A stretch of 64,000 nt of DNA from a virus. The stretch spans positions 1 through 64,000 of the IMG/VR virus record IMGVR_UViG_3300021197_000592, one strand, 5' to 3'. Position numbers and translations under genes: made by a program. Below, piece by piece: positions 173 to 21,290 of the stretch (the stretch's first letter is position 1; every line of letters starts with the position of its first letter). The notes under the pieces were generated by a model that did no database searches, was not told where the DNA came from, and was given only the letters and a program-made list of their open reading frames with translations.

Positions 173-451
173 ATGGAATGGTTCGATAATGTGCGAAAAA
201 ATAGCATGAATGAGCGATTGTATGAGATTACGATGAGAAACAAGGCAAAATTAGACGTAATGTTGGATGAACACTATGAATTTGTCGAATCAGAGGTCAA
301 AAGGATGGTTTCTATGGGTATTTCCGAGGAAAATGCGAAAAAACTCGTTGCTGACATGAGTGAGGAGACTAGAAAGGTAATTTTAGATGGAATTGAGGAA
401 AATAAGAAGAATCTAGAGCGAATTATCTCTACTCAAATTATTGAAGAGTAA
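173..451 (+). CDS. hypothetical helical protein with W-tag variant (MEWFDNVRK)
   Basis: In-frame ATG at 173 of ORF 125..451, preceded by GGTGA SD at 163-167; starts with a variant of the shared N-terminal motif. Confidence 0.7.
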   Translation: MEWFDNVRKNSMNERLYEITMRNKAKLDVMLDEHYEFVESEVKRMVSMGISEENAKKLVADMSEETRKVILDGIEENKKNLERIISTQIIEE

Positions 452-503
452 ATTTCGATAATTCAGAACAATAAAGTGTTACCTTCAAGTGGAACTCGTT
501 TAG

Positions 504-767
504 ATGGTAGAGGATTCTCAAAATGAGTTGGGAAATGACCCTTCTAAATTGATTGAGTTGTCAAGGGATGAAAATGACTGGTTTACCGTGCTTAGAGGGG
601 CAGGAGCGGTAACTAGCACATCAGCAGGAACGGCTCCGTTGTTCAATATCTCGTATGGAAAGTATTTGAGAGTAAAACCGAAGAAAAAGAAGAAACTAGA
701 GGGAACCATCTTTGAGAATTTAGAGAAAGATGGGGAACATGAGGAGGGATGTGGTTGTGGCTGCTAA
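504..767 (+). CDS. hypothetical protein, internal W-tag-like segment (DWFTVLRG), C-terminal CGCGC
   Basis: ORF track; motif inspection. Confidence 0.6.
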   Translation: MVEDSQNELGNDPSKLIELSRDENDWFTVLRGAGAVTSTSAGTAPLFNISYGKYLRVKPKKKKKLEGTIFENLEKDGEHEEGCGCGC

Positions 768-1890
768 GAAGTTGAAGAAGGACAGAGTTTCCCTTAATCT
801 CGGCAAGTATAAGTTGAATTCTCGTAGGAACTACAAATTGTTCACCAAGGACTGGTCTAATTGGTTGCGAACCACGAAGGGACTCAGTGGGGATGCGATA
901 GGGAACGCCAAACTCAGTGAGTCACTATTCGATATGGTTGAGGGTCAGGGAATCTCAGGTCGTCAGGCTGGTAACAGCGGTCCTGATGGCGAGCCTTGGT
1001 CAAGAGATGCGATAGCAGACATGAGAGACATCGAGAAGTTCTTCCGAACTCAGAACTACAGCGAGGAGCATCTGAATAAACTGATGGCACTGGACAAGCA
1101 GATGGATGATTGGAAGAACAGTAGTGAGGTCGGTGGAGGAAATGCGGCTAACATCAAGTTCACACAACCTGCTGCATGGGATGACGAGGATGGAACCATT
1201 GCCGAGTATGAGTTTGTCTATGGTCACTATCTGACAGACAAGTATGTCGAGTATCGAAACAACTTCAAGGATGATAATCTGTCTGCTGTTTCCTCTGAGT
1301 GGTATTCTGACACGCCCGGAAGCGCTAGGCCTCCGATGTGGCAAGCAATGTATGCAGAGGGGAACTTCCTCGGTAAGAACTCGATGAGTCTGCATAAGAT
1401 AATCAAGGATGCAATCAAAGACCTACAGGAGTTGGACTTTGAGTTAGACCAATCCACGCCAATTCCAATCGAAGGACAAGGCAGTGCGAAACTAGCCTTG
1501 GAGATTCCTGAGATTGCCAAGATGTTCAAGATGATGGTTGACCATGAGGAGTACACCACAAGCAGTGGTAACTTCGCAACGACAAGAGCGGCTAGTCAAA
1601 TCAAGAACGTTCCAATCATGCTCAAGACGAACAGGGAGGTCAACATCGTCAAGAGGATAGCAGATGAGATGGGTGGAATACCCAACGACATAGAGAAGAT
1701 ATTCATCACGATGTCAAGGAGGCAGATGGCTAACATGGCGAAACTCGCTGGATGGAAGCCACATCCAGAATCGACCTACATGAAGAGGAAGAAGAGAGAG
1801 GCCGAGGAAGCACAGGAGACTGATGAGGTGAAGACCAGTGCTGATGTCGAGGAGACTGATTGGAGAACCATAATGAAGGTGAATGCATGA
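730..1890 (+). CDS. hypothetical protein with C-terminal W-tag (DWRTIMKVNA)
   Basis: 386-aa ORF; true start may be GTG 751/757 after GAGGAGGG. Confidence 0.75.
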   Translation: MGNMRRDVVVAAKKLKKDRVSLNLGKYKLNSRRNYKLFTKDWSNWLRTTKGLSGDAIGNAKLSESLFDMVEGQGISGRQAGNSGPDGEPWSRDAIADMRDIEKFFRTQNYSEEHLNKLMALDKQMDDWKNSSEVGGGNAANIKFTQPAAWDDEDGTIAEYEFVYGHYLTDKYVEYRNNFKDDNLSAVSSEWYSDTPGSARPPMWQAMYAEGNFLGKNSMSLHKIIKDAIKDLQELDFELDQSTPIPIEGQGSAKLALEIPEIAKMFKMMVDHEEYTTSSGNFATTRAASQIKNVPIMLKTNREVNIVKRIADEMGGIPNDIEKIFITMSRRQMANMAKLAGWKPHPESTYMKRKKREAEEAQETDEVKTSADVEETDWRTIMKVNA

Positions 1891-1976
1891 AATTACCATG
1901 CTGTGGAGTGAACGTTTCAAATGATAACTATGCAATGGCAATTTGCATGTATTGTTTTGGGAGAGGAAAGAAATGA
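1887..1976 (+). CDS. 29-aa Cys-rich microprotein (MKLPCCGVNVSNDNYAMAICMYCFGRGKK), possible Zn finger
   Basis: Hand-translated; ATGA overlaps with both neighbours; CC plus CxxC. Confidence 0.55.
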   Translation: MKLPCCGVNVSNDNYAMAICMYCFGRGKK

Positions 1977-2200
1977 ATTGGAAGAGTAATGTAGAGAAGG
2001 CCATAGAGATTCTAGATTCAGATATGGTAGCAGAGAACAAGGTTGCTAGAGCCTTGGATTTCCTTGTAGCGTCATTGCGAGTGGGTATAGCGATGGAGCA
2101 TGAGAACAGAATGGAGAAAGCAGACTGGTTTGAAACCATCAAGGGAGATTGCGGAACTCACAAGATTGACGATGAGGAAGATGAGGAGGAGATGGATTAG
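1973..2200 (+). CDS. hypothetical protein, W-tag variants at N-terminus (MNWKSNVEK) and internally (DWFETIKG)
   Basis: ATG 1973 after GAGAGG within ORF 1943..2200. Confidence 0.7.
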   Translation: MNWKSNVEKAIEILDSDMVAENKVARALDFLVASLRVGIAMEHENRMEKADWFETIKGDCGTHKIDDEEDEEEMD

Positions 2201-2689
2201 ATGAGTTGGTTTGAGATATTGAAGGAACTATCGGATTATGAGAGAGCAGTAGCGGAGGAGTTCGCTACAGATGAGGATATGGATAGACCTGACTACAGTA
2301 AGACTGGTCCGTTTGCAAACATGCCTGAGTTTCCGAAGATGAGAACCAAGGATTCCACTACACAAGACGAGGATGCCAAAAGGAGAACAGAGGAGAACGA
2401 AGCAGAACTCCTCGCTCGCTTGAAGGCACGAAACCAGAAGAGCAGAGAGAGGATAGGCAAACAAGTCCCGATTCCACCACCGCCTACTGGTGGCCCTATG
2501 CCCCCACCCCCACCGATGGATGGTATGGGAATGCCACCACCACCAATGGGGATGCCACCAGAGCAGCCGGAGAAGCCGGTAGTCAATCCAGAGAACGCAT
2601 CGGAATTTCCCGTTGACCCTGAGCAGGATGACGACATGGAAGACAAGACTGGTATCAGAGTGAAGAAGTGGTTTGAACAGTTGAAGTGA
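2201..2689 (+). CDS. Pro-rich protein tagged at both ends (MSWFEILK ... KWFEQLK)
   Basis: ORF track; poly-Pro/Met tract. Confidence 0.75.
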   Translation: MSWFEILKELSDYERAVAEEFATDEDMDRPDYSKTGPFANMPEFPKMRTKDSTTQDEDAKRRTEENEAELLARLKARNQKSRERIGKQVPIPPPPTGGPMPPPPPMDGMGMPPPPMGMPPEQPEKPVVNPENASEFPVDPEQDDDMEDKTGIRVKKWFEQLK

Positions 2690-2693
2690 TAGC

Positions 2694-3881: not shown

Positions 3882-4777
3882 TGATGGCTTGGTTTGATTT
3901 GGTTAGAAAAGACTTCTATTTCGGAGACAATGACCCTAACGCGGCTAATCTTGCATATCAACAACAAATGGAAGCGGCGGCACAGAATCCAGATACGATG
4001 GCTAGATTAAGAGCAGAAAGCCGTGCAAGAAACGAAAAAAGGAGTCAACTTGCGAACTTAGGTAGTGGTAAAGAATATGGGTATGCTAGAAACAGGACTC
4101 CATTTTTCGGAACTAATCTTTCAGCAGTCGGTAGAAAGGGAAAAGACCTGCAAGAGAAAGAGTGGTTCAAGGATGAGGATGAAATGGAGGATTACTACAC
4201 TGATATGATTAGTGAGATAGAAACACATGAGGGTACGCATCAAGCAATGAAACCAGCCCTGAGAGATGCGGCTAATGAGGAAAGACAAAAGAGAATTGAA
4301 GAGGCCAAGAAAAGAGGAATTAAGGTTCTCAGAGATAATGAAAGTAAACAAGGTGTGACTAATCTTGAGAATCCTACTCCCCAACAGCATCGAGGAGGAA
4401 AAAACTACTACGAATCAGATGCGAGTCTTCCCACTGAACCTTCTTTCTTCGACAAGGTAAGAAGAAGAAAGATTGCACCAGAGAGTGAATTCAATGTTAA
4501 ACCCGGCCAAATGTCTGAATGGGAGGAGAAGGGTGCTGGCACTGCTCAATTCTACACTCCGGCTCGCGGTGACAAACCGTGGACTAGTGCTACTAACTAT
4601 CCTTACTCATCAACAAGAGTTGACCCTGCGAAGTTCAAAGACCCGCGAGCAACTCAAGACCCCAAACAAATGAGGGACATGCAAATAGATGGCGGATATC
4701 AAGAAATACAAAGAGACAGGGAACAAAGGCAGAAACCATTCAATGAGTATTATGACACAGGGAGGGCTTCGTTTTGA
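3881..4777 (+). CDS. W-tagged protein (MAWFDLVRK) with HExxH motif, possible zincin-like metalloprotein
   Basis: EIETHEGTHQAM in a helical context; start could be 3878, 3881 or 3884. Confidence 0.6.
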   Translation: MMAWFDLVRKDFYFGDNDPNAANLAYQQQMEAAAQNPDTMARLRAESRARNEKRSQLANLGSGKEYGYARNRTPFFGTNLSAVGRKGKDLQEKEWFKDEDEMEDYYTDMISEIETHEGTHQAMKPALRDAANEERQKRIEEAKKRGIKVLRDNESKQGVTNLENPTPQQHRGGKNYYESDASLPTEPSFFDKVRRRKIAPESEFNVKPGQMSEWEEKGAGTAQFYTPARGDKPWTSATNYPYSSTRVDPAKFKDPRATQDPKQMRDMQIDGGYQEIQRDREQRQKPFNEYYDTGRASF

Positions 4778-5430
4778 TTACTAGAAAGAGATGCTCACTT
4801 TGCAATCACGAAGACCGTGACCAACTAGAGCATGACTTGGAGTCTATGGCTATCACTTCCGATGAGTTGGACAATCGAATGAACTGGCCTAGTGGCACAT
4901 CATCAAGACATCAGAGGAATCACATGGCTGGTTACACCAACACATCAAACCCAAGGTGCAAGATATGCATACATCCGATTCGCATAGAGATAGAGAAGCA
5001 AGTGCATGATGGGATAATGACACCAACGACTGCGGCAGAGGTAGTCGGTTGTTCGGAAGACCAAATCATGCGACACATGAAGCATCATCTACAACCACTA
5101 GTGCAGCAATCAGCAGCACAACTAATCGCACAGAAGGATGTCGATGAGATTGGAGTTCTCAGTAGCAACATCACTAGGCTTGAGTCGAAGGTTGACGACT
5201 TGTTCGCAGAGGATGGCCTCGACCCCAAGTACATCGACTCGCTGACCAAGTTGGCGAAGGAGATTCGTGAGAGCCTCAAGTACCTCATGGAGTTCAAGGG
5301 CAAGTTGGTTCACAAGAGGCAAGACACAATTATAGTTCATCAGATGCAAGTTATCAAGGAGGTTCTAGCACAGAACCATCCTGAAGTTTGGCTAGATGTC
5401 AGAAAGCAAATGGAGAGTAAGATGCAATGA
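4774..5430 (+). CDS. protein with two CxxCxH...HxxxH repeats and C-terminal coiled coil; terminase small subunit candidate
   Basis: CSLCNH..HQRNH and CKICIH..HMKHH; no W-tag; TerS call is from architecture only. Confidence 0.4.
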   Translation: MITRKRCSLCNHEDRDQLEHDLESMAITSDELDNRMNWPSGTSSRHQRNHMAGYTNTSNPRCKICIHPIRIEIEKQVHDGIMTPTTAAEVVGCSEDQIMRHMKHHLQPLVQQSAAQLIAQKDVDEIGVLSSNITRLESKVDDLFAEDGLDPKYIDSLTKLAKEIRESLKYLMEFKGKLVHKRQDTIIVHQMQVIKEVLAQNHPEVWLDVRKQMESKMQ

Positions 5431-5792
5431 ATTGGAAAGATATTCTTCTGAAGGACACTAGTACAGCAACTAGGAGTGCTGACCTGTGGGTCATGAATAG
5501 CGAGGAGAATTACTTTCCAATCATACAACTCATTAAGCAGAAGGTGAAATCTTATTTGGATTGGGGTTGGTCTAAGGAAGAAGTAGTAGAGGATATCCTG
5601 AATGCCGTAGCAAAGGAATTGCCTGAGATGCTATCCCAACACAAGGGATTCATGGACGAGTTGTTATCTCCTGTAGATGATAGGGATGAACAGGGAGATA
5701 GCATATCGGATGTGGATTGGCTAGAGGTTGCTAGGAATTTTGAAGAGGATATTGAAGATGCTATGGGGGATTATCCGGAGGAATGGCAATGA
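5427..5792 (+). CDS. acidic W-tagged protein (MNWKDILLK)
   Basis: ORF track; ATGA coupling. Confidence 0.75.
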   Translation: MNWKDILLKDTSTATRSADLWVMNSEENYFPIIQLIKQKVKSYLDWGWSKEEVVEDILNAVAKELPEMLSQHKGFMDELLSPVDDRDEQGDSISDVDWLEVARNFEEDIEDAMGDYPEEWQ

Positions 5793-6061
5793 GTTGGAAA
5801 AATCTAGTTAAAATTGAAGATTATGATACTCTTTCCTATCTAACTAGAGAATCATTAGATTCACTTAAAGATTTAGAAAGACAGTTATTTGAAACAATAT
5901 ACAAGTTACAGTCAAGTAAACTAGGTAGTAACTTAAGGGATAAACCGGAATCAAACCTTGATTTCCAATTTCTTTTACAGTTCAAGAGGCAGTTGGGAGA
6001 ACTTCTGTATGACATTGAAAATCCTATGAGAGACTACGCGGAGAAATGGCAATGAGTTGGA
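5748..6061 (+). repeat. 51-bp imperfect direct repeat at consecutive gene junctions (5748-5798, 6011-6061)
   Basis: 42/51 identical by hand alignment; encodes DIEDAMGDYPEEWQ* and DIENPMRDYAEKWQ*, each running into ATGAGTTGGA. Confidence 0.85.
5789..6055 (+). CDS. W-tagged protein (MSWKNLVK), AT-rich
   Basis: ATG 5789 overlaps upstream stop. Confidence 0.7.
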   Translation: MSWKNLVKIEDYDTLSYLTRESLDSLKDLERQLFETIYKLQSSKLGSNLRDKPESNLDFQFLLQFKRQLGELLYDIENPMRDYAEKWQ

Positions 6062-6711
6062 GCGAAAACAAAGATTGGTTTAATGTGTTAAAGGCTCCAC
6101 GGCCTTTTCGTGATGATACAGGAGCAAAAAGAACGAAGGGAAATATTCCATATTATACATATGATGAATTAGATGATACGGAAAGAGAACAGGCTGACAG
6201 AGGATTGGGAATACAGGCTGACAAGGATGCACGTGCAAGGATGAAAGACCCATCATTGCAAAGCCGCATAGAAATGGAGATGCGAAGAAAGGGAAAACGT
6301 GCAGGGAAGAAAGAGGCTAGAACAAGACTCACGGAAGAAGCGAGAGAAGACCTAGAAGGAAAGAAAGGTGAAAGAGCATTCATGGGAAGAGGGCGCGAAC
6401 CCGGATTGTATGGTCGTTCCGCAGGATATGACATAGACACAGACGAGGGTGTTGCAACGTATGAGTCAGGGTACAAAGGAGCAGAGAGATTCAGGGGATT
6501 CAAACCCGTTCAACTGACTAATTTTTTAAAGGGTGTACTGAGAGAGAAGGGAAAGAAAGAAAACATCGAGTCAAAATTTAGACAAGCCATAGATGACTAT
6601 ATGCGAAATGGTGGTAAGTTTGAGAGACAACACATAACTCTACTGAACAAGGCTGGTCTTGGTGGTTCTGTTATGATGGACATAGTGAGAGACAATTTAG
6701 CAAGAAGGTGA
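6052..6711 (+). CDS. basic W-tagged protein (MSWSENKDWFNVLKA)
   Basis: ATG 6052 overlaps upstream stop. Confidence 0.75.
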   Translation: MSWSENKDWFNVLKAPRPFRDDTGAKRTKGNIPYYTYDELDDTEREQADRGLGIQADKDARARMKDPSLQSRIEMEMRRKGKRAGKKEARTRLTEEAREDLEGKKGERAFMGRGREPGLYGRSAGYDIDTDEGVATYESGYKGAERFRGFKPVQLTNFLKGVLREKGKKENIESKFRQAIDDYMRNGGKFERQHITLLNKAGLGGSVMMDIVRDNLARR

Positions 6712-6715
6712 GACA

Positions 6716-8371
6716 ATGGCATGGGAGTCTTTGTTGAAAGTCAGGCGATTCTTGTCTGATGACGAAGTTAAGATTGCACATGCACTTATTGTGGCAAAGG
6801 CATCTGGTGACCCACTAGATTTGTCAGAATATGAAACACCAGAGAAGAAGAGAACCATCACTATGTTCACTAAGAAGATAGAGCGCGTTGAAGACAAGGA
6901 GTTTGAAGAGAAGTTCCAACAGGTAAAATGGAAGTTGGGAGACAAGGAAGACTACTTGAGAATGCTCAAAGAATATAGACAAACGCAACCTACCCCCAAA
7001 GAAATTGACAAACCGTATCTAAAAGATAAGATTGAGGACTTCTTAGAGGGAAACCACGATGGTCTTTTAGAATTGATAGAAAGGAGTAAAAGAAAGGGAT
7101 TAATTTCTGCTATTCAGAATTGGAATAAAGTCAACAATGATACCTTGAGGGAGTACGTCAAGGACAAGCCCGAACTCGCTGAGAAGATGAAGAAGGTGTT
7201 CAGGCAACTGGAATCATCTGAGGAGATGAAGAGGCAGGTGTCTCCTGCTTCGATTGGGGATGACGTTGCTGCGGAATATGTCAAGATGGTGGTGAATGAT
7301 TTGAAACTAGCATCTACTGGTAATGAGATGAGACTAGGAAAGGAGTCCTACTTGCCAATAAGAGAGGGGTTGTCTCCTAACTTCGCACGTAAGTTGTTTG
7401 GGTTGGGAGCGAATCAAGGAGGGAACCTCCCACCTGTAACCATGTATATTCTAGAGAATGACTCAGTTAACTTTGAGGAGTTCATGGCTGTTGCTGATAC
7501 AAAGTCAAGCACAGTCAAGGAGATGCTGTACAATAAACTCAGGCGAAGCGAGTTCGATAATGACATTCAAGAGGAATGGGATAGAAGCGAAAGCATTGTG
7601 TCGTTTGAGAATACGGTAGCGGCAGACAGGGAGATGAGCAAGGAATTCAAATCCATGTTGGCTAACTTGGGAGAAGGCATGAAAGTAGAGGATGTAACTA
7701 CAGATGTGAAATTCTCCATGCCGAAGGATGACTATGACAAGATGATGAGCGGAAAGTGGGATGAGTCCTTGGAGACATATGGGATAAACTCCGATGACGC
7801 ATTGGAGGACTTGTTGGATGTGCATGAGGAGGACTTGAAGAAACTACAGGAGAAGGTCAAGGGTTTCGTGAGGCTAGTTGACATGGAGACAAAGAAGAGG
7901 TTGGAGGACTCCGAACTCCTACAGGATGAGGGAATAGAACTCTGGAACAATGATGGCTCATTGAAGCAGATAACAACCGAGGAGACTGGTGAGAAGGCTT
8001 TCCCGAAATACCTGCAAACTCTTGCCGAGATAGACAATCCTACCAGAGCCGTATTCCTAGCCGCAGAGGGAAACAAGAACCAAGTGATGCTAGGAGACTT
8101 CATTCTCTACTTAGCAAGAGCAGAACTATCATATCAAGAAAGGACAAGTGATGTGAGAAGCGCGGTCAATGCCTATGCTAAAGAGCAAAGCGATGAGAAC
8201 AAGAAAAAACTAGATGACGAACTCTCCACTGCTAAGTACAAAGAGATTAGAAACGACATGCTACTAGCGATAAAGGAGAAGATGGCAACGCTTCTCAGTG
8301 AGTATGATACTAACATGTTGCACGAAAGAAAGACTATAGAACCGTTGGATTGGTTGAGGGAGAACATATGA
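6716..8371 (+). CDS. large acidic helical W-tagged protein (MAWESLLK); internal virion protein candidate
   Basis: 551-aa ORF with GGTGA SD; function is inference. Confidence 0.7.
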   Translation: MAWESLLKVRRFLSDDEVKIAHALIVAKASGDPLDLSEYETPEKKRTITMFTKKIERVEDKEFEEKFQQVKWKLGDKEDYLRMLKEYRQTQPTPKEIDKPYLKDKIEDFLEGNHDGLLELIERSKRKGLISAIQNWNKVNNDTLREYVKDKPELAEKMKKVFRQLESSEEMKRQVSPASIGDDVAAEYVKMVVNDLKLASTGNEMRLGKESYLPIREGLSPNFARKLFGLGANQGGNLPPVTMYILENDSVNFEEFMAVADTKSSTVKEMLYNKLRRSEFDNDIQEEWDRSESIVSFENTVAADREMSKEFKSMLANLGEGMKVEDVTTDVKFSMPKDDYDKMMSGKWDESLETYGINSDDALEDLLDVHEEDLKKLQEKVKGFVRLVDMETKKRLEDSELLQDEGIELWNNDGSLKQITTEETGEKAFPKYLQTLAEIDNPTRAVFLAAEGNKNQVMLGDFILYLARAELSYQERTSDVRSAVNAYAKEQSDENKKKLDDELSTAKYKEIRNDMLLAIKEKMATLLSEYDTNMLHERKTIEPLDWLRENI

Positions 8372-12755: not shown

Positions 12756-12818
12756 ATGAGTTGGTTCGACATCCTAAAAATAAGTGGACCGCCTAACATA
12801 TTCGGAGGTAAGGCCTGA
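12756..12818 (+). CDS. 20-aa tag-only micro-ORF MSWFDILKISGPPNIFGGKA
   Basis: Hand-translated; GAGGAGGGG upstream; stop overlaps terL ATG (TGATG). Confidence 0.65.
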   Translation: MSWFDILKISGPPNIFGGKA

Positions 12819-14260
12819 TGGAACTAGATGACATGGACTTCGTATCTGCGATGGACATGGAGTTGTCAAAGACATCGTTCCCTTACTTCTTCCAGAACGT
12901 ACTCGGCATGATGTTCCCACCATACATGGAAGAGTGGTTGGAATCCATGCAGAACACGGATAGGACTGTCATAATCTGTAGTCGTGACCACGGCAAGTCT
13001 GTTTTCATGCATTGTTGGGTGGTATGGAATCTAGTCTTCCAAGAACCGCCATATCAGATGCTATACATCTCATCGAACCAGAAGCAGACTCTAGTTCACA
13101 TGAGGGAGATTGACAGGTACTTCAATCATCCAGCACTAAAGAAGTTCCGACCCTCACGCAATTGGGCTATTGGTAACATACAACTCACAAACGGTAATGC
13201 GATACTTGAGAGGTCAGTAGGCTCTCAGATTCGTGGTCTTCACCCACAGGAGATTGTCATTGACGACCCCTTGAAGGAGTTCAGTCTATCAGCAATACAG
13301 AGAGTTACAGATTGGTTCTTCGGTGACATGATACCAACGCTTCACCATACATCCAACCTTCGTATGATTGGTACGCCATTCACATACACTGACATCTTTG
13401 CACAATTGGAGGAGAACCAAGCATACACCGTAACCAAGTATCCCTGTTTCAATGCATTGAACGAACCGCTTTGGCCTGAGCGTTGGGACCATGATGCACT
13501 CTTGCAGAGGAAGGCTGAGATAGGCTCTCTCAAGTTCACAAGGGAATACTTGTGCGTACCGATATCAACAGGTACTTCGTTGTTCAACCCTGAGTTCATA
13601 GAGAATTGCAAGAACAAGGAATACGTTCTGAAACTAGGGAATAGGAGGGATAAGGGATACAAGTATTACGTTGGGGTTGACCCAGCGATATCCACTGACG
13701 GTGACTACAATGTAATCACGGTGCTTGAGGTTGATGATGAGGCAAACAAGACAATTGTGCATGTTGACCGAGCCAAGAACGTTGAGTTCAGGGAGAACAT
13801 AGAGAAGATTAGATTGATTGGGAAGATATTCCAACCAGAGGTAGTTCTCTATGAGACTAACACATTCGCTAAGGCGTTCACTCAGGAATTGAGAAGCATC
13901 TCTGACTTGAACGTCAAGGACTTCGACACGACAAGGAAGAAGAAGCAGGAGATAATCTTGAACTTGCAGATGAACATAGAAAACAAAAAATTCAACTTTC
14001 CCTATGGCGATAACGCCAGCAGAAGGTTGACTAACCTCTTGATTGAGGAACTTTCTATGTTCAGCATCACGGACTCCGGTAGGTTTGAGGGAGTTGGTGC
14101 GCATGACGACTTGGTTATGAGCCTCGCTTTGGCTAATGCCGCTACCCAATCACCGGGGGAGAACTTTATTCTGCTAGACGACATGGACTTGTTTGATACG
14201 GCTCCGACATCGCCGGTAGGTAGTGGGATACCACCGGGTATTTTGGGATTGAATCTATAG
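12818..14260 (+). CDS. terL: terminase large subunit
   Basis: Walker A SRDHGKS, Walker B IVIDD, coupling motif GTP, nuclease VGVDPA ... HDDLVMS. Confidence 0.95.
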   Translation: MELDDMDFVSAMDMELSKTSFPYFFQNVLGMMFPPYMEEWLESMQNTDRTVIICSRDHGKSVFMHCWVVWNLVFQEPPYQMLYISSNQKQTLVHMREIDRYFNHPALKKFRPSRNWAIGNIQLTNGNAILERSVGSQIRGLHPQEIVIDDPLKEFSLSAIQRVTDWFFGDMIPTLHHTSNLRMIGTPFTYTDIFAQLEENQAYTVTKYPCFNALNEPLWPERWDHDALLQRKAEIGSLKFTREYLCVPISTGTSLFNPEFIENCKNKEYVLKLGNRRDKGYKYYVGVDPAISTDGDYNVITVLEVDDEANKTIVHVDRAKNVEFRENIEKIRLIGKIFQPEVVLYETNTFAKAFTQELRSISDLNVKDFDTTRKKKQEIILNLQMNIENKKFNFPYGDNASRRLTNLLIEELSMFSITDSGRFEGVGAHDDLVMSLALANAATQSPGENFILLDDMDLFDTAPTSPVGSGIPPGILGLNL

Positions 14261-14269
14261 GTGAATACA

Positions 14270-15604: not shown

Positions 15605-15605
15605 T

Positions 15606-17243
15606 ATGGCAGATGAAAAAAGAAGATTCAGAATAGGAAACCTATTTCGTAGGACAACTCCAAAACCAGCAGATAGAACAATATACAATCCGGGGATTCA
15701 GGAGAAGGACACATCGTATCTACTCACATCTCCTGTGATATACCACATAGCACAGCAATCAGTCATTGTCAGGACTTGCACTACTCAACTCAAGCAGGAG
15801 ATATTCAGAAGAGGATATCTGTGGGAAGAGAAATTCGTGAAGAGATGCAAAGACTGTGGTAAGGAACACCAGTCACCAGTTGAGCAATGTGTAGAGTGTG
15901 GCTCAATGAATCTAGAGAAGCCAAATCCACAACAACTGAAATACGCTCAGAAATTCCTAGGTGGCTACGTCAACAAATCAGAGCAGATGTTCATAGACGT
16001 ATTGAAGGAACTAGAGGATGACTTGAATATCATGGATGATGCATATCTTGTTATGGTGAAGGAATACTTCATAGATAACAACAACGAAATTCGTATGCAT
16101 CGAATCAAGGAGGTCTATCGTGGTGACCCCGTTTCAATGCACATCTATTCCAATGACACTGGTGAGAGAGGCAAAGGAGGATACATCTGTGTCAAACACA
16201 GGGACAGGATAGAAACAAGTCCCACTGGTCTTTGTGAAGAATGCAATTCCGAACTGCATCCTGTTCATTACGTGAACAGAGTCAAGGGAGAGGAACAGTA
16301 TTTCACGAAGGGTGAAGTGTTGCATTTCAGCAAATACTCACCCGGTAGGATGTACGGGCTATCACCAATCATAACGCTATGGAATCATGTTACGACTCTG
16401 ATAGCAATGGAGAACTACGTCAACTCATCATATACCAAGGCTAGAATGCCCAAGGGCCTACTAGCAGTGCAGACTAGGAACATCGATTCGATGAGGTCGT
16501 TTTGGCGAAGCGTCAAGGAGAAGATGGAGAAAGACCCACACTTCATTCCTGTGATGGGAATCGAAGCAGAAGGCGGTAAGGGTTCTGTCGAGTGGGTGAA
16601 GTTCATGGATAGCCTGAAAGAGATGGATTACATGTCTGTCAAGGATGACCTGAGAGATAGAATATCAGGGTTCTATGGAGTGAGCAAGGTATTCATGGCG
16701 GATAACTCTGCTAGTGGTGGGTTGAACAACGAGGGTATGCAGATACTCGTAACCAACCGAGCAGTCGAGATGGCTCAGACAATTTGGAACAACTATGTGT
16801 TCCCATTCATGACATCAGAGTTCGGTATAAGCGATTGGGAATTGAAACTACCACCATCCGAAGAGGAGGATGAGATTGCTAAACTGCGAAAGAGAGAGAT
16901 TGAGGTCAACGTAGCGGCGGCTATCAAGAATCTAGGGTTTGAGGTCAATATGGATGATGAGGGTAGATTCACCTACGTGAAGCCACCACAACCAGAAGAC
17001 CAACAACAAACAGATGACATCGAATTGGACCCATACGCTGGAACTAACATTGACCAATCACAACTCGGTCAGATGATGGAAACCGGAACTAGACCAACTG
17101 GCGAAGAAGCAGGTCAACCCGCGACTGTGAAAGGTAGAAACAAACCAAGCATGAGCGTTGGTCCCGACAAGAGATTCAGTGGTTTGCCAAGGGAAGCAGG
17201 GAATGAAAATGTCGATAGGCGTAGTGAGAGGCGGGTAGGTTGA
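15606..17243 (+). CDS. portal protein with Zn-ribbon insertions
   Basis: Position after terL; EVLHF...YGLSPI and RISGFYGV portal-like motifs; CKDC/CVEC and CVKH/CEEC. Confidence 0.9.
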   Translation: MADEKRRFRIGNLFRRTTPKPADRTIYNPGIQEKDTSYLLTSPVIYHIAQQSVIVRTCTTQLKQEIFRRGYLWEEKFVKRCKDCGKEHQSPVEQCVECGSMNLEKPNPQQLKYAQKFLGGYVNKSEQMFIDVLKELEDDLNIMDDAYLVMVKEYFIDNNNEIRMHRIKEVYRGDPVSMHIYSNDTGERGKGGYICVKHRDRIETSPTGLCEECNSELHPVHYVNRVKGEEQYFTKGEVLHFSKYSPGRMYGLSPIITLWNHVTTLIAMENYVNSSYTKARMPKGLLAVQTRNIDSMRSFWRSVKEKMEKDPHFIPVMGIEAEGGKGSVEWVKFMDSLKEMDYMSVKDDLRDRISGFYGVSKVFMADNSASGGLNNEGMQILVTNRAVEMAQTIWNNYVFPFMTSEFGISDWELKLPPSEEEDEIAKLRKREIEVNVAAAIKNLGFEVNMDDEGRFTYVKPPQPEDQQQTDDIELDPYAGTNIDQSQLGQMMETGTRPTGEEAGQPATVKGRNKPSMSVGPDKRFSGLPREAGNENVDRRSERRVG

Positions 17244-17362: not shown

Positions 17363-17466
17363 AAAAAAATGCAAAGCCCGATTTTATTGACATCGATGGA
17401 GATGGTGATAAGGAAGAGCCAATGCAGGATGCAGTAAAAGACAAGAAAGGTGAAACAAATGAGTGA
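17341..17466 (+). CDS. 41-aa W-tagged microprotein (MEWQEILKK) with DxDxDG Ca-binding-like loop
   Basis: Hand-translated MEWQEILKKNAKPDFIDIDGDGDKEEPMQDAVKDKKGETNE; GGAGGAAGG upstream. Confidence 0.75.
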   Translation: MEWQEILKKNAKPDFIDIDGDGDKEEPMQDAVKDKKGETNE

Positions 17467-17683
17467 AAAGAAAGGCGTAAGACAATTGGAAAGAGAATTG
17501 AAAGCAGCAAGGAATGAAGAAAGAAGGGACCATGAGAACAGAATCACGAAGAACCGTGATTTCTCAATAGGAGGCATTGACCCAAATACAAAGTCAAAGC
17601 CACTACCCAACTCCACTGATATCCCTGATGCTATTCTCCTGCCTAAGAAGAAGAAGTTGAAGAAAGAAAACATTCCGTGGTGA
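17459..17683 (+). CDS. basic hypothetical protein
   Basis: ATG 17459 after AGGTGA. Confidence 0.65.
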   Translation: MSEKKGVRQLERELKAARNEERRDHENRITKNRDFSIGGIDPNTKSKPLPNSTDIPDAILLPKKKKLKKENIPW

Positions 17684-17687
17684 TTGA

Positions 17688-18875
17688 ATGTCATTCATGG
17701 ATATCCTCAGAAAGCAGGGTGAGGAAGTCCAATCTGACATATACGACTTGAAGGGAAACTTAACCCCCAAGCAATTGAGAGATGCGGCAGAGACATGGGA
17801 GAAGTACGGGGAGAACTTCGGTCCAAATCTGCTGACTCAACCAGCACCGCTGGAAGATAAGAGAGCAAGAGAAGGAGGAGACTTGAGAAACAATCCGGGT
17901 TTCATGGCCGATGCTACCAAAGCACTACAGATGATTGAGTCACTACCATCGGCTTCCACAGAAGAGGAGTTGATGTCTCCTGAATATCAAGCAAGAGGAG
18001 AGATAGAGGAAGTTCTAGAGATACTTCAAGAGAACTTCATCAAAGAAATAGAGAGAAGAGCAGGACAGAAGAAAACCTTCGTTAGTAGAAAGATGAATGC
18101 TGATAGCCTAGAGGAAATACTACGAATGGTTTCAAAGTTCAACAGTCCAGCAGAGATGGAAGAAAAGTTTCCGAACAAGAAGAAGTTCGCAAAGGAATGG
18201 TCTACACAGTTTGCAACATTCAAGGATAAGATAAACGAGTTCCTCTATCTAGGTGAGAGAATAGCACAGCCCGTTCGTGAGGTGTATCTAGAGAATCCAA
18301 TCAGACTCGCTAGGTTCGATGATGACAAGAAGGAATGGATGCAAGAGGATGAACTAGGATACAAGATGTACAATGGCAAGACATCCAAGGAAGTATGGGA
18401 AGACTTGCTGAACTTCTTGGGTATGGAAGCAATGACACCATACGACAAGAAAGAATCCAGAAGCCGATTAGAGAGATACGTTCGATTCGATGAGAGCAAC
18501 TTAGATGAACTATTCAATCTCATTAAAGAAGACAACTTGATGGAAGCATTTCCTGCTCTGTTTGAAGAATCATCATTCGATGACTTGGAGAGCGCATTAT
18601 ACTTACTTATAGAAGACGTAATGGAAATGCATGACGACTACTTGGATGCAGACGGAGAGGATGAAAAGATAGAGGAGAACATCGAGAAGTACCTCACAGC
18701 AATAGAGTTCCTGATGCATGTGTTTGAGATAACGAGAAGGGATGATTTCATCAACGATGGAGTTGTAAACGAACTCAAGGAGATAGAGGAACCAAGGCCA
18801 TTCCAGTTCCACAGGGAATTCAGAAACATAATAGAGGCCCATGATTTGTACGATGAAGAGGAGGAAGACGAGTGA
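17688..18875 (+). CDS. acidic protein with tag variant (MSFMDILRK)
   Basis: 395-aa ORF with GGTGA SD. Confidence 0.75.
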   Translation: MSFMDILRKQGEEVQSDIYDLKGNLTPKQLRDAAETWEKYGENFGPNLLTQPAPLEDKRAREGGDLRNNPGFMADATKALQMIESLPSASTEEELMSPEYQARGEIEEVLEILQENFIKEIERRAGQKKTFVSRKMNADSLEEILRMVSKFNSPAEMEEKFPNKKKFAKEWSTQFATFKDKINEFLYLGERIAQPVREVYLENPIRLARFDDDKKEWMQEDELGYKMYNGKTSKEVWEDLLNFLGMEAMTPYDKKESRSRLERYVRFDESNLDELFNLIKEDNLMEAFPALFEESSFDDLESALYLLIEDVMEMHDDYLDADGEDEKIEENIEKYLTAIEFLMHVFEITRRDDFINDGVVNELKEIEEPRPFQFHREFRNIIEAHDLYDEEEEDE

Positions 18876-19198
18876 GTTGGCAAACAATCCTGAAAGCAAA
18901 TGGTCTAGTGGATAAACTTGACCCAAAGGAGAAGAAGAAGATAAAGAAACTCCTACAGTCTGCTCAACCGTCTGAGTTCATGGGTCAGGAGATAACGCAG
19001 TTGTCTGATTTGCTGACTGCGATGAAGGGTATTGGCTTGGTGAAGAACGACAAGAACATGCAGAAGAAGTTTGAGAAGTTCGATGAAAACAACTTAGACC
19101 TAGTTGCCACAGCATCCGAATTACGGAAGGACTATGAAACACTTTACAACCAGTTGAGAGCAGAGATTTATCCAAAGAAGAAGGGGAAGTTAGAATGA
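18872..19198 (+). CDS. W-tagged protein (MSWQTILK|A)
   Basis: GTG start overlapping upstream stop. Confidence 0.75.
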   Translation: MSWQTILKANGLVDKLDPKEKKKIKKLLQSAQPSEFMGQEITQLSDLLTAMKGIGLVKNDKNMQKKFEKFDENNLDLVATASELRKDYETLYNQLRAEIYPKKKGKLE

Positions 19199-19743
19199 GT
19201 TGGTTTGACATACTAAAGTTGTATGGTAATGAAGACGATTATATTCCTGAAGCAATGCGTGAGTTACTTGAAGAGAACGAGTCGCTACAAGATAAATATG
19301 TTAGTTTCATGGATGAACTCAACTATGAGGTATATCAACTAGGAGAAAAAATGGCTAAGATAGCAGAGGAGGATAATCTCGATGATTATGCTACGAAAGC
19401 CATTGACAAGTATATGAACATGAATGTAACTGGCGGTGAACACTTTGAGGATGTATACCAATCAGTCTCAGATGAATACTATACAAGGAAAAGGGATGCA
19501 GGGGAAGAGGAAGACTCAGCCCCTCAACTTGAGTATGGTAATAAGAACCAAAAAACATTAGAAGCCTTAGAAGATTTCCAAGGTCAGTATTATGAAAACG
19601 AATGGACTGATTATCGAACAAACAGAGAGTTGTCTGCATTAATGGCGGCAGTAAGTCGTGGCGATACTGATAATCTAGAAGGAGAATTCCCTGAAGCATA
19701 CCTTATTTTTAATGAAGCCGGACTACTTAATGAGTTGGAGTGA
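19195..19743 (+). CDS. acidic W-tagged protein (MSWFDILK)
   Basis: ORF track; ATGA coupling. Confidence 0.75.
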   Translation: MSWFDILKLYGNEDDYIPEAMRELLEENESLQDKYVSFMDELNYEVYQLGEKMAKIAEEDNLDDYATKAIDKYMNMNVTGGEHFEDVYQSVSDEYYTRKRDAGEEEDSAPQLEYGNKNQKTLEALEDFQGQYYENEWTDYRTNRELSALMAAVSRGDTDNLEGEFPEAYLIFNEAGLLNELE

Positions 19744-19748
19744 TTGAA

Positions 19749-20078
19749 ATGAGTTGGAAAGATATAATCAAAAATGAAAGAGGGTTCTACACTGACAAAG
19801 AGAATGCCAAGGAGAAAGCAAAGAGCCTACCGAGGATGAAGAAAGAGTTGGATAAAACACTTACAGAATTGAAAATGCTTGTAGATGAAATAGGCGGAGA
19901 CGAAATGGATAAAATGTTCGATGGCCCTGATGGTCAAGAGGTAGGAAGCACTACTCAACTGATGGAAGACTTCAATGAGTTCAAGAAAAAGGTTGAAGAT
20001 GCATATGAGGATGCTTTAATATTTAACACTCAACTTGCAGAAATGTCATTTAATGAAGCAAGGTATGGTAGGCGATGA
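19749..20078 (+). CDS. W-tagged coiled-coil protein (MSWKDIIK)
   Basis: ATG 19749 within ORF 19740..20078. Confidence 0.75.
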   Translation: MSWKDIIKNERGFYTDKENAKEKAKSLPRMKKELDKTLTELKMLVDEIGGDEMDKMFDGPDGQEVGSTTQLMEDFNEFKKKVEDAYEDALIFNTQLAEMSFNEARYGRR

Positions 20079-20079
20079 A

Positions 20080-20583
20080 ATGAGTTGGCAAGATATCCTG
20101 AAAGACATGGATGCAGAAGAGGAATTTGAGAGAGATGCTCTAAGAAGAGATATTGAAGCGGAGCGATATTCAGAGTCCTATCAAAGCCCTAATTTCAAAA
20201 AGGTTGAAGAGAAGTTGAGGGAGTTAGTGAATATCACTATTCCACAAGATGAGCGAATGTTACAAATTGTAATGAGTGCAGGATTCAAAGAACCACCAGT
20301 CACTAGACAACAACTAACATCTGCTACAAGGAAGATTTATCAAGATTTGAAAGAACTTGATAAGATAAAGAAAGAAGCCAAGGAGTATGCAGATAAAAAC
20401 CCAAAATCCGGTCCTTACGATGACGAATTGATTAATGATGTGTTTAAGGATTCAAATTCAGAATACGCTACTGATAGGGGTTTTGAAATGTTAATGGGTA
20501 ATAAAATTGAAGATATACGCTTAGGCTTCGCTAACACGATAACGAGCAACATGCAACAATACAAGCAATTGTTTGAAAAGTGA
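20080..20583 (+). CDS. W-tagged protein (MSWQDILK)
   Basis: ATG 20080 within ORF 20035..20583. Confidence 0.75.
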   Translation: MSWQDILKDMDAEEEFERDALRRDIEAERYSESYQSPNFKKVEEKLRELVNITIPQDERMLQIVMSAGFKEPPVTRQQLTSATRKIYQDLKELDKIKKEAKEYADKNPKSGPYDDELINDVFKDSNSEYATDRGFEMLMGNKIEDIRLGFANTITSNMQQYKQLFEK

Positions 20584-20588
20584 TTGAA

Positions 20589-20663
20589 ATGAACATGAAA
20601 GGAACACTAAAAAGAAATCTTAAGGAAAAACTAAATGAGTTCAGGAAGGAGGAAGAGGCATGA
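20589..20663 (+). CDS. 24-aa micro-ORF MNMKGTLKRNLKEKLNEFRKEEEA
   Basis: Hand-translated; same junction GTGATTGAAATGA as at 19740; ATGA overlap downstream. Confidence 0.45.
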   Translation: MNMKGTLKRNLKEKLNEFRKEEEA

Positions 20664-20893
20664 GTGACGAGAAGAACGAGATGCTACTGCTCCTGAAAGA
20701 ACTGGTTGGCAAGGTGAAATCCTTGGAAGAGGTCGTTTATCAGAAAGATAATCTACTGATGAAGAGTGGACTTGTTGTAGTCGATAGTCCACGACCAGCA
20801 ATAAGCAACGAACAATCAGGAATGTCAGGAGACACAATAGCGAAGATGGACTGGTCAGAAATCAATCAAATCATAGAGACAATAGAGGGATAG
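20660..20893 (+). CDS. small protein with scaffold-like C-terminal helix (DWSEINQIIE)
   Basis: ORF track; C-terminus resembles the end of the protease/scaffold. Confidence 0.7.
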   Translation: MSDEKNEMLLLLKELVGKVKSLEEVVYQKDNLLMKSGLVVVDSPRPAISNEQSGMSGDTIAKMDWSEINQIIETIEG

Positions 20894-20894
20894 A

Positions 20895-21290
20895 ATGGCA
20901 AACTGGCAAAACTTATTGAAAGTTGACATTCGCAATCCTCAATTCAAAGAGTTACTGGATTCGCTTCCTCCTAAAGCGCGAAAAGAAATTGAATCGAGGA
21001 TGAAAGACCGTGATAGTAGTGAGGACAGCGTAAAGTATAACCTTCAAGTAGAGGGACTTCTAAGTGACCCTAAAGTAGAATCTATGCGAAATGAACTTGA
21101 ATCAATGAAAGAAAAAATGGATGATAAAGCATCTAAGTTGATGAGGTATATGTGGGATAACGACAAGAATCCTGTAGACTCGGATGACCCTGAAGTGGAT
21201 AGATTCGGCCCCGGATTCAAAGCCTCAGAGATACTAGGAAAAGAGATTAACGAGATACAAAGAGAATTTGGTGGATATAAACCGTGGTGA
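20895..21290 (+). CDS. W-tagged protein (MANWQNLLK)
   Basis: ORF track. Confidence 0.75.
   Translation: MANWQNLLKVDIRNPQFKELLDSLPPKARKEIESRMKDRDSSEDSVKYNLQVEGLLSDPKVESMRNELESMKEKMDDKASKLMRYMWDNDKNPVDSDDPEVDRFGPGFKASEILGKEINEIQREFGGYKPW

What the first reader, a model, noticed from the sequence alone, without database searches (positions are those of the whole stretch)
173..21290. Array of at least 18 unrelated genes sharing an N-terminal W-x-x-[ILV]-[LIV]-K tag: candidate capsid cargo-loading system
Seen: N-termini MEWFDNVRK (173), MNWKSNVEK (1973), MSWFEILK (2201), MNWMTVLK (2694), MAWFDLVRK (3884), MNWKDILLK (5427), MSWKNLVK (5789), MSWSENKDWFNVLK (6052), MAWESLLK (6716), MELWFEDLK (11775), MSWFDILK (12756 and 19195), MEWQEILKK (17341), MSFMDILRK (17688), MSWQTILK (18872), MSWKDIIK (19749), MSWQDILK (20080), MANWQNLLK (20895). 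Similarity stops after the Lys and the bodies look unrelated. The tag is confined to the packaging/head region; terL, portal and every gene after the capsid gene lack it at the N-terminus. Established: T4 internal proteins carry a 10-aa capsid targeting sequence (MKTYQEFIAE, also aromatic-x-x-hydrophobic-hydrophobic) that the prohead protease removes after Glu, and HK97 capsid protein is cut at Lys103|Ser. Inference: this is a Lys-terminated equivalent that loads many proteins into the prohead, is clipped off, and delivers a variable payload into the host. I know of no such description for archaeal viruses.
Basis: partly seen in the sequence, partly recalled or inferred. Interest (0 to 1): 0.95.

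Follow-up and report, generated by a model that had tools for sequence, protein, structure and literature searches.

The report
Shared cargo tag in a magrovirus
Eighteen unrelated genes beside the head-assembly genes of an ocean archaeal virus start with the same eight-residue peptide, which resembles the scaffold protein's tail and ends like the predicted capsid-protease cut sites, so it is probably a label that loads a fast-changing set of small proteins into the capsid; neither packaging nor clipping has been shown.

Summary
All 18 N-termini exist as listed: 15 strict matches in the window against 0.18 expected by shuffling. The record is a 98.4-kb magrovirus, a tailed virus of marine Poseidoniales archaea. 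In 80 related loci the tag (consensus M-S-W-x-D-I-L-K) heads 157 of 291 protein families whose bodies are unrelated. It occurs 424 times on the structural strand and 3 times on the other. It is absent from the replication arm, TerL, portal and capsid protein.

Conservation is at the peptide level, because D, I, L and K codons follow background usage. Codon 2 is the exception: Ser is AGT in 95% of tags, and many starts overlap the upstream stop as ATGA.

Two coincidences inside the genome support a capsid-loading, protease-clipped tag:
- Its I-L-K end matches invariant motifs at the capsid protein's N-terminal propeptide (ALLK|S) and on both flanks of the HK97-type protease domain (FxILK|S, FDILK).
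- Its M-S-W-x-D-I start matches the invariant C-terminus of the scaffold domain (MSWxDIHN).

The closest analogue is the T4 internal-protein capsid targeting sequence, with a different protease family and sequence. Packaging, cleavage and delivery are untested. The same tag was noted earlier in this scan on other magrovirus DNA. I found no published description.

The parts
173..451 (+). Tagged ORF, 92 aa, MEWFDNVRK
730..1890 (+). 386-aa ORF with no N-terminal tag; conserved C-terminal tag-like motif DWRTIMKVNA*
   Evidence: cluster 27: DWRT[IV]MKV conserved in relatives
1973..2200 (+). Tagged ORF, 75 aa, MNWKSNVEK; second internal motif DWFETIK
2201..2689 (+). Tagged ORF, 162 aa, MSWFEILK at the N-terminus and KKWFEQLK* as the very last residues
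2694..3881 (+). Tagged ORF, 395 aa, MNWMTVLK; low-complexity Q/A/R-rich body
3884..4777 (+). Tagged ORF, 297 aa, MAWFDLVRK
4774..5430 (+). 218-aa HTH/zinc-ribbon protein with no N-terminal tag; conserved C-terminal VWLDVRK
   Evidence: HTH_20, below Pfam cut-off
5427..5792 (+). Tagged ORF, 121 aa, MNWKDILLK; start overlaps the upstream stop (ATGA)
5789..6055 (+). Tagged ORF, 88 aa, MSWKNLVK; ATGA overlap
6052..6711 (+). Tagged ORF, 219 aa, doubled tag MSWSENKDWFNVLK; basic, pI 9.6
6716..8371 (+). Tagged ORF, 551 aa, MAWESLLK; family present in 19 related loci
10982..11770 (+). 262-aa protein with internal WFALVK (aa 179-184) at the junction to a Cys-rich DUF5754-like module. In most relatives the protein ends at this motif.
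11775..12755 (+). Tagged ORF, 326 aa, MELWFEDLK. It has a soluble PAP2-type phosphatase domain and an internal WQEVISK before a Cys-rich tail.
   Evidence: PF01569, E 1e-11
12756..12818 (+). Orphan 20-aa ORF, MSWFDILK plus 12 residues, abutting the TerL start; not found in 60 relatives
12818..14260 (+). Large terminase, untagged
   Evidence: Terminase_6C/6N, weak
15606..17243 (+). Portal protein, untagged
   Evidence: PF04860
17341..17466 (+). Tagged ORF, 41 aa, MEWQEILKK, then PDFIDIDGDGDKEEPM
   Evidence: (phrog_24078)
17688..18875 (+). Tagged ORF, 395 aa, MSFMDILRK (F in place of W; Y in some relatives)
18872..19198 (+). The only tagged core gene: 108 aa, GTG start, (M)SWQTILK. It is present in 75 of 81 loci. 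It is 685-777 aa and still tagged in other magrovirus groups.
19195..19743 (+). Tagged ORF, 182 aa, MSWFDILK
19749..20078 (+). Tagged ORF, 109 aa, MSWKDIIK
20080..20583 (+). Tagged ORF, 167 aa, MSWQDILK
20660..20893 (+). Core 77-aa protein. N-terminal LLLLK; C-terminal MDWSEINQ, which is M-[DSE]-W-x-[DEQ]-I-[HN] in relatives and resembles the scaffold tail.
20895..21290 (+). Tagged ORF, 131 aa, MANWQNLLK
24230..25444 (+). S78 prohead protease (aa ~22-168) fused to an acidic linker and a coiled-coil scaffold domain
   Evidence: PF04586, E 1.6e-9
24278..24292 (+). FSILK (aa 17-21) just before the protease domain; FxILK|[SA] in 65 of 65 distinct relatives. Predicted autoprocessing site.
24734..24748 (+). 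FDILK (aa 169-173) just after the protease domain; 65 of 65 relatives. Predicted cut that would release the scaffold.
25403..25423 (+). Scaffold C-terminal motif SWSDIHN; [MIL]-S-W-x-[DE]-[ILV]-H-[NAS] in relatives. It matches the front half of the tag.
   Evidence: short helix 393-403
25456..26826 (+). HK97-fold major capsid protein
   Evidence: (pLDDT 80; Foldseek probability 1.0 to phage capsids including HK97)
25531..25542 (+). ALLK (aa 26-29) in the capsid protein. [LV][LM]K|[SA] in 55 of 55 relatives, and K in 82 of 100 homologues down to 25% identity. It lies in a predicted disordered linker after an N-terminal helix. Predicted maturation site.

Best explanation
The eight-residue N-terminal peptide (consensus Met-Ser-Trp-x-Asp-Ile-Leu-Lys) is most likely a two-part capsid-loading tag.

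Its front half (S-W-x-D-I, a two-turn amphipathic helix) copies the docking motif at the C-terminus of the virus's own scaffold domain and of a 77-aa core protein. Tagged proteins would therefore be drawn into the assembling procapsid by the same contact. The receptor is not identified. Candidates are the inner face or N-terminal helix of the capsid protein, the scaffold core, and the portal.

Its back half (Ile-Leu-Lys) copies the P3-P1 residues of the sites where the HK97-type (S78) prohead protease is predicted to cut the capsid protein and itself. The tag would then be clipped off inside the head, leaving free cargo.

The cargo is a large, rapidly turning-over set of small, soluble, highly charged proteins, at least 157 families in this lineage. 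Presumably they stay with the DNA or enter the host with it.

Shown here:
- the motif, its distribution and its peptide-level conservation;
- the sequence matches to the scaffold tail and to the conserved Lys sites.

Inferred:
- docking, cleavage, presence in virions and delivery.
For: 1. All 18 tags are real and far above chance: 15 observed against 0.18 expected.
2. In 80 related loci there are 424 tagged starts on the structural strand and 3 on the other. 157 of 291 body families carry the tag, and nothing is conserved after the Lys.
3. In four complete genomes the tags sit only in the block co-oriented with and upstream of the head genes, never in the replication arm.
4. D, I, L and K codons vary like the background.
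5. The core assembly genes are untagged and conserved, while tagged genes are hypervariable. This is the pattern described for T4 internal proteins (PMC3012670).
6. Capsid protein [LV][LM]K|[SA] is found in 55 of 55 relatives, and K in 82 of 100 distant homologues. It lies in a disordered linker of a confident HK97-fold model.
7. The protease carries FxILK|[SA] and FDILK on both flanks of the S78 domain in 65 of 65 relatives.
8. HK97, the type member of S78, cuts at K103/S104 in an unstructured segment (PMC10275583).
9. The scaffold C-terminus [MIL]SWx[DE][ILV]H[NAS] and the 77-aa protein C-terminus M[DSE]Wx[DEQ]I[HN] match the tag's MSWxDI.
10. 145 of 147 tagged families lack a TM-like segment. 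Median length is 111 aa and GRAVY is -0.84.
11. In the cultured relative HVTV-1, the portal-to-protease interval holds a protein annotated 'head assembly' and a large protein annotated zeta toxin. From general phage knowledge this is a usual place for head-internal proteins.
Against: - There is no proteomic, structural or biochemical evidence. Magroviruses are uncultured.
- The protease's specificity is inferred only from conserved motifs.
- The receptor of the tag is unknown and co-folding was not possible with these tools.
- The AF2 model of the protease-scaffold was poor (pLDDT 48), so no docking of the motifs into the active site could be seen.
- Eighteen cargo species per genome, some of 395-551 aa, is a heavy load.
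- A putative DNA-binding HTH protein (4774-5430) carries the C-terminal variant. That is not obviously a capsid cargo, and it hints that the motif may bind another hub.
- Position 2 (Ser AGT, ATGA overlaps) is under nucleotide-level constraint, so part of the similarity to the scaffold's 'MS' may be coincidental.
- The C-terminal enrichment is modest: 13 observed against 4.8 expected.
Confidence: 0.6

Rival explanations
1. The motif is a docking peptide for a hub other than the capsid interior. The hub could be the portal or terminase complex, a virus- or host-encoded chaperone (some magroviruses encode thermosomes), or another host machine. It would coordinate late proteins without packaging them.
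For: - The motif works at either terminus, as in 2201-2689, 730-1890, 4774-5430 and the scaffold. That is typical of a generic short linear binding motif.
- An HTH/zinc-ribbon protein that could be a small terminase or a regulator carries it at the C-terminus.
- Thermosome genes in magroviruses are reported in PMC5434244.
Against: - It does not explain why the tag ends in the same hydrophobic-hydrophobic-Lys as the conserved sites in the capsid protein and around the protease domain.
- It does not explain why the scaffold, whose job is inside the procapsid, carries the same motif.
- TerL and portal themselves are untagged.
Confidence: 0.17
2. The shared start is mainly a gene-expression or recombination device. 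It would be a conserved translation-initiation region for tightly coupled ORFs, or a microhomology that lets gene cassettes be swapped. The peptide itself would have little function.
For: - Ser2 is AGT in 95% of tags against 23% in the background.
- +4 is A in 79% of tagged starts.
- 41% of tagged starts overlap the upstream stop as ATGA, against 17% of untagged starts.
- Tagged genes are the most variable part of the genome.
- An orphan tag-only ORF (12756-12818) and tags at module junctions look like recombination scars.
Against: - Beyond codon 2, synonymous codons are used freely: six Leu codons, three Ile, both Lys and both Asp, close to background.
- Trp, the aliphatic pair and Lys are kept across groups whose capsid proteins are only 50-54% identical.
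- The same residues recur at C-termini, where initiation is irrelevant.
Confidence: 0.08
3. The tag is a short N-terminal amphipathic helix for transient membrane or envelope association, or a degradation/timing signal (N-degron) read by host proteolysis.
For: W, F, I and L on one helical face with a flanking Lys resembles small membrane-targeting helices. The proteins are otherwise soluble. The tagged set includes a PAP2-type phosphatase, a family that usually acts on lipid phosphates.
Against: - Eight residues is short for membrane anchoring.
- There is no explanation for confinement to the structural operon or for the match to scaffold, capsid-protein and protease motifs.
- Nothing known about archaeal degrons fits (my own knowledge, not tested).
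Confidence: 0.05

Closest known systems
Capsid targeting sequence (CTS) of phage T4 internal proteins IPII/IPIII (and IPI, Alt), removed by prohead protease gp21 (PMC9958956, PMC3012670)
   Same: A short conserved N-terminal peptide (about 10 aa) sits on otherwise unrelated, highly diverse small proteins. The genes are hypervariable between related viruses. The peptide is clipped by the head protease. The cargo serves counter-defence after injection.
   Different: - The host is an archaeon.
- The protease is Pfam S78 (HK97 type), not the T4 gp21 type.
- The predicted cut is after Lys, not Glu.
- The tag sequence is unrelated to the T4 CTS.
- There are 18 tagged genes per genome and at least 157 families in the lineage, against a handful in T4.
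- The tag mimics the scaffold's C-terminal motif and also occurs at C-termini.
- Nothing here is experimentally shown.
Phage P1 DarB N-terminal capsid localisation signal (Dar system) (PMC9024508)
   Same: An N-terminal signal of fewer than 30 residues is sufficient to send a foreign protein into an HK97-fold head. The cargo is an anti-restriction payload.
   Different: The P1 Dar proteins share no recognisable consensus signal, as that paper states. Here one consensus is shared by all cargo.
HK97 capsid maturation: S78 protease gp4 cutting the capsid protein at K103/S104 (PMC10275583)
   Same: The protease family is the same and the fold is HK97. A conserved Lys lies in a disordered segment between an N-terminal assembly segment and the capsid body.
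   Different: In HK97 the scaffold is the 103-residue delta domain of the capsid protein. Here the propeptide is only 29 aa and the scaffold is fused to the protease. HK97 has no tagged cargo set.
Propeptide-bearing ejection and inner-body proteins of giant phages (SPN3US, phiKZ) (PMC7411985, PMC10052503)
   Same: Many head-internal proteins are processed by the prohead protease at a common short motif and are ejected into the host.
   Different: In those phages the propeptides are long and unrelated to each other, and only the cleavage motif is shared. The protease is T4-like. They are bacterial jumbo phages.
Encapsulin cargo-loading peptides, and the SaPI1 CpmB / phage 80alpha scaffold C-terminal mimicry
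   Same: A short terminal peptide docks cargo to the inner face of an HK97-fold shell. An unrelated protein copies a scaffold's capsid-binding end to use the same site.
   Different: Encapsulins have no portal, protease step or DNA, and their peptide consensus is different. CpmB redirects capsid size rather than loading cargo.

Membership tests
T4-type CTS / internal-protein system | Short conserved N-terminal peptide shared by otherwise unrelated proteins | tested here: met
   consensus MSWxDILK, with bodies unrelated.
T4-type CTS / internal-protein system | Peptide is sufficient to direct a foreign protein into the prohead | not testable with these tools
   This needs expression of tag-reporter fusions with procapsid proteins.
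T4-type CTS / internal-protein system | Peptide is removed by the prohead protease at its consensus site | tested here: inconclusive
   The tag ends in I-L-K, like the conserved ALLK|S in the capsid protein and the FxILK / FDILK flanks of the protease. No cleavage data exist.
T4-type CTS / internal-protein system | Homology of the tag and protease to T4 CTS and gp21 | tested here: not met
The protease matches Pfam S78 / S78_2.
T4-type CTS / internal-protein system | Tagged proteins present in virions and ejected | not testable with these tools
   The virus is uncultured and I found no proteomics.
HK97-type (S78) protease-driven capsid maturation | S78 prohead serine protease next to an HK97-fold capsid protein | tested here: met
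   (PF04586, E 1.6e-9, above cut-off). (capsid protein pLDDT 80, Foldseek probability 1.0 to HK97, T5 and GTA capsids).
HK97-type (S78) protease-driven capsid maturation | Cleavage of an N-terminal segment of the capsid protein after Lys | tested here: inconclusive
   K29 is kept in 82 of 100 homologues with a hydrophobic P3, in a linker with pLDDT below 50. This is a prediction only.
Magrovirus (order Magrovirales, viruses of Poseidoniales) | About 100-kb linear genome; archaeal-type replisome arm; ATP-dependent ligase and a homing endonuclease embedded in the structural module; head genes related to those of haloviruses | tested here: met
   compared with the description in PMC5434244. No named reference magrovirus genome was available for a direct comparison.
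Encapsulin cargo-loading peptide | HK97-fold nanocompartment without portal, tail or DNA; cargo peptide with the encapsulin consensus | tested here: not met
   Portal, terminase and tail genes are present. The tag consensus is different.

The most novel reading that the evidence does not exclude
Magroviruses, among the most abundant viruses of ocean archaea, may run a general, programmable protein-loading system. One eight-residue tag would combine a copy of the scaffold's docking motif with a copy of the head protease's cut site, and would address well over a hundred unrelated, fast-evolving small proteins to the capsid. These would include an intact soluble PAP2 phosphatase. The result would be an injected effector arsenal. 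This would be the first such system in an archaeal virus and the largest tagged cargo repertoire known for any tailed virus.
Probability: 0.45. Interest if true: 0.85.

Novelty: new variant of a known kind. Interest (0 to 1): 0.75.

Why it matters
If the reading is right, it would matter in four ways.
- It would give a function class, virion cargo, to most of the previously unannotated genes in the head region of a globally abundant virus group.
- It would point to an unexplored arms race between Poseidoniales archaea and their viruses.
- It would show that capsid loading by a terminal tag evolved independently with an HK97-type protease.
- The match between the tag and the scaffold tail gives a simple, testable mechanism. 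An eight-residue tag could also be used to load proteins into recombinant archaeal-virus capsids.

It would also explain why so many unrelated genes cluster among the structural genes. A ligase also sits in the structural module, but its own tag-like motif is kept only in close relatives.

Tried and rejected
- **DNA-level conservation:** rejected for positions 3-8 by codon counts, but it is real for codon 2.
- **Tag on TerL through a frameshift from the 20-aa ORF 12756-12818:** rejected. Sixty relatives have untagged TerL and no such ORF.
- **Function of cargo:** Pfam and PHROGs gave nothing except PAP2, a weak HTH and unnamed PHROGs. The ESM Atlas gave nothing.
- **AF2 of the protease-scaffold,** to see whether FSILK or FDILK docks in the active site: the model was too poor (pLDDT 48).
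- **Covariation of tag and scaffold tail across distant groups:** both are too conserved to covary.
- **More distant viruses with related capsid proteins,** including HVTV-1: they have no tag arrays, so the system is specific to the magrovirus lineage.
- **Literature:** three magrovirus papers and full-text searches found no description of the tag.

Full report
**What the window is.** The 64-kb window is the left two thirds of a 98,438-bp IMG/VR virus record that CheckV rates complete. All long ORFs in 1-64.7 kb are on the + strand. The rest of the record is a - strand arm that carries what read as replication genes: an apparently split PolB and other candidate replication proteins. These were read from N-terminal sequence only and were not searched. 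On the + strand, profile searches identify:
- large terminase at 12818-14260;
- a homing endonuclease at 14261-15604;
- portal at 15606-17243;
- an 880-aa ATP-dependent DNA ligase at 21557-24199;
- an S78 prohead protease fused to a scaffold at 24230-25444.

The next gene, 25456-26826, matches the annotated major capsid proteins of haloviruses HVTV-1 and HCTV-1 and of methanogen viruses. With a 100-sequence alignment it folds into a confident HK97 fold (pLDDT 80; Foldseek probability 1.0 to HK97, T5 and GTA capsids). A ligase and a homing endonuclease inside the structural module, together with an archaeal-type replication arm, are the published hallmarks of magroviruses, the viruses of marine group II (Poseidoniales) archaea (PMC5434244).

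**The observation.** A strict pattern gives 15 hits in the window against 0.18 expected from shuffles, with a maximum of 2. In the full record no ORF in the tail module or the replication arm starts with the tag. With the tag removed, the bodies are unrelated by BLASTP. Synonymous codons are used freely at the Asp, Ile, Leu and Lys positions and track background usage. The conservation is therefore at the peptide level. There is one nucleotide-level feature. Ser at position 2 is AGT in 95% of tags (background 23%). The base after ATG is A in 79% of tagged starts. 41% of tagged starts overlap the upstream stop as ATGA, against 17% of untagged genes. The tagged genes are thus tightly coupled in translation, and residue 2 is partly dictated by that.

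**How general it is.** A portal search brought in 80 related IMG/VR loci with 71-98% portal identity.
- The tag pattern followed by an open frame occurs 424 times on the structural strand and 3 times on the other.
- 1,672 ORFs were clustered with the tag masked, giving 291 families. Of these, 157 are tag-majority.
- The consensus from one representative per family is M-S-W-[FEQK]-D-I-L-K, with nothing conserved afterwards.
- The conserved core genes are untagged: portal, terminase, endonuclease, ligase, protease-scaffold, capsid protein and three small proteins.
- Only one tagged family is core. This is the 18872-19198 family, found in 75 loci. In other magrovirus groups it is a 685-777-aa protein that still carries the tag.
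- All other tagged genes are hypervariable accessory genes.
- Tagged families are small (median 111 aa), strongly hydrophilic and almost never have a TM-like segment.
- In three further complete genomes the tags again lie only in a block upstream of the capsid gene on the structural strand, wrapping round the record ends in two of them.
- Other magrovirus groups, whose capsid proteins are about 50-54% identical to this one, carry the same tag (MWEDILK, MNWQDILK, MGWENIVK). They have fewer copies near the head genes and some in a second hot spot in the neck/tail region.
- More distant viruses with related capsid proteins, including the cultured HVTV-1, have no tag arrays.

**Clues to mechanism inside the genome.** Three observations tie the tag to head assembly.

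First, the capsid protein has an N-terminal segment ending in A-L-L-K followed by S/A and a Gly-rich stretch.
- [LV][LM]K|[SA] is present in all 55 distinct relatives.
- Across 100 homologues down to 25% identity, the aligned column is Lys in 82 and Arg in 7, with a hydrophobic residue two positions before.
- In the model this Lys sits in a disordered linker (pLDDT below 50) between a short N-terminal helix (residues 9-22) and the HK97 body.
- HK97, the type example of the S78 protease family, cuts its capsid protein at K103/S104 in an unstructured segment (PMC10275583).

Second, the S78 domain of the protease-scaffold protein is flanked by two motifs: F-x-I-L-K|[SA] four residues before the domain, and F-D-[IV]-L-K right after it, ahead of a variable acidic linker. 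Both are invariant in 65 distinct sequences. These look like autoprocessing sites. The tag's I-L-K end fits the same pattern: aromatic, x, x or D, aliphatic, aliphatic, Lys.

Third, the scaffold domain ends in [MIL]-S-W-x-[DE]-[ILV]-H-[NAS], and a core 77-aa protein ends in M-[DSE]-W-x-[DEQ]-I-[HN]. That is the front half of the tag, M-S-W-x-D-I. Even distant relatives keep W/F-x-x-[IV]-H-[DN] at the scaffold C-terminus. From general phage knowledge, scaffold C-termini are the parts that hold the coat protein. The only fairly confident parts of the protease-scaffold model are a long helix (293-374) and a short terminal helix covering this motif.

**Motifs at other positions.** Tag-like motifs also occur at C-termini or module junctions of several genes in the block:
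- DWRTIMKVNA* in 730-1890;
- KKWFEQLK* in 2201-2689;
- VWLDVRK near the end of the HTH protein 4774-5430;
- WFALVK at the junction to a Cys-rich module in 10982-11770. In most relatives that protein simply ends at the motif.

The C-terminal enrichment over families is modest: 13 observed against 4.8 expected. Use at either end fits a docking motif better than a purely N-terminal processing signal.

**Best explanation and rivals.** I think the most likely reading (about 0.6) is a two-part capsid-loading tag. The S-W-x-D-I helix would use the scaffold's docking contact to enter the procapsid. The I-L-K end would let the S78 protease clip the tag off, as it is predicted to clip the capsid protein and itself. 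The hypervariable cargo with a constant tag mirrors T4 internal proteins. Those are a diverse set of counter-defence proteins that share only a capsid targeting sequence, which gp21 removes (PMC3012670, PMC9958956).

Docking, cleavage, presence in virions and injection are all inferred. The receptor is unknown.

- The main rival (about 0.17) is that the motif binds another hub, such as the portal or packaging complex or a chaperone. The HTH protein with the C-terminal variant argues a little for this. The match to the protease and capsid-protein sites argues against it.
- A pure expression or recombination role (about 0.08) is supported only at codon 2.
- A membrane or degron role (about 0.05) explains neither the location nor the matches.

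**Known or new.** The three magrovirus papers I could read and the full-text searches contain no mention of the tag or of cargo loading in archaeal tailed viruses. The same tag was noted earlier in this scan on other magrovirus windows, with the same reading (e1-5967397, e1-5998255). Those are unchecked AI notes, not independent evidence. I found the scaffold-tail match before reading them. Functionally this is a new variant of a known kind, terminal-tag loading of HK97-fold shells. It differs in using an HK97-type protease, a Lys-ended tag that copies the scaffold tail, an archaeal host and a much larger cargo repertoire.

**Limits.**
- No multimer folding was available.
- The protease-scaffold model was poor.
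- Cargo functions remain unknown except for a soluble PAP2-type phosphatase. Its three catalytic motifs are intact by my reading of the sequence.

Noticed in passing
window 12756-12818: A 20-aa ORF made of a perfect tag (MSWFDILK) plus 12 residues. Its stop shares a base with the TerL start codon. It is absent from 60 relatives. It may be a remnant of a lost cargo gene or a free tag peptide.
   Followed up: partly
tag starts across window 173-21290 and loci L002-L081: Ser at position 2 is AGT in 95% of tags (background 23%). 41% of tagged starts overlap the upstream stop as ATGA, against 17% of untagged starts. This indicates tight translational coupling of the cargo genes.
   Followed up: yes
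window 11775-12755: The tagged protein has a soluble PAP2-type phosphatase domain. The KxxxxxxRP, PSGH and SRxxxxxHxxxD motifs are present by eye. After the tag comes a Cys/WPSAYASGALVQCRK module that matches three unnamed PHROGs (727, 38880, 3477). A Cys-rich basic tail related to the one in 10982-11770 follows.
   Followed up: partly
window 5427-5792 and 5789-6055: Two adjacent tagged proteins share only a C-terminal ending, DY(P/A)E(E/K)WQ* (BLASTP E 0.004).
   Followed up: no
window 17341-17466: A 41-aa tagged ORF with PDFIDIDGDGDKEEPM, a calcium-loop-like motif, matching phrog_24078 (E 5e-6).
   Followed up: no
window 21557-24199: An 880-aa protein whose ATP-dependent ligase domain (aa 254-439) is flanked by long unannotated N- and C-terminal regions. 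A tag-like WKDIVKK at aa 44-50 is kept only in the closest relatives (13 of 63), so there is no firm sign that the ligase is cargo.
   Followed up: partly
window 17450-17683: A core 74-77-aa very basic protein just after the portal with a conserved C-terminal ENIP(W/F)*.
   Followed up: no
window 41610-49226 and 49555-59343: Two giant ORFs of 2,538 and 3,262 aa in the tail region.
   Followed up: no
G000 70465-71337 and 71976-73661 (- strand, beyond the window): What looks like a B-family DNA polymerase split into two ORFs with small ORFs between them, as reported for magrovirus group B1. This was judged from N-terminal sequence only.
   Followed up: no
L178 16820-17754; L213 16337-19182: In other magrovirus groups tagged genes sit in a second hot spot, between homologues of window 32500-33597 and 33795-34322. 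This window has only an untagged 70-aa ORF there (33590-33802).
   Followed up: partly
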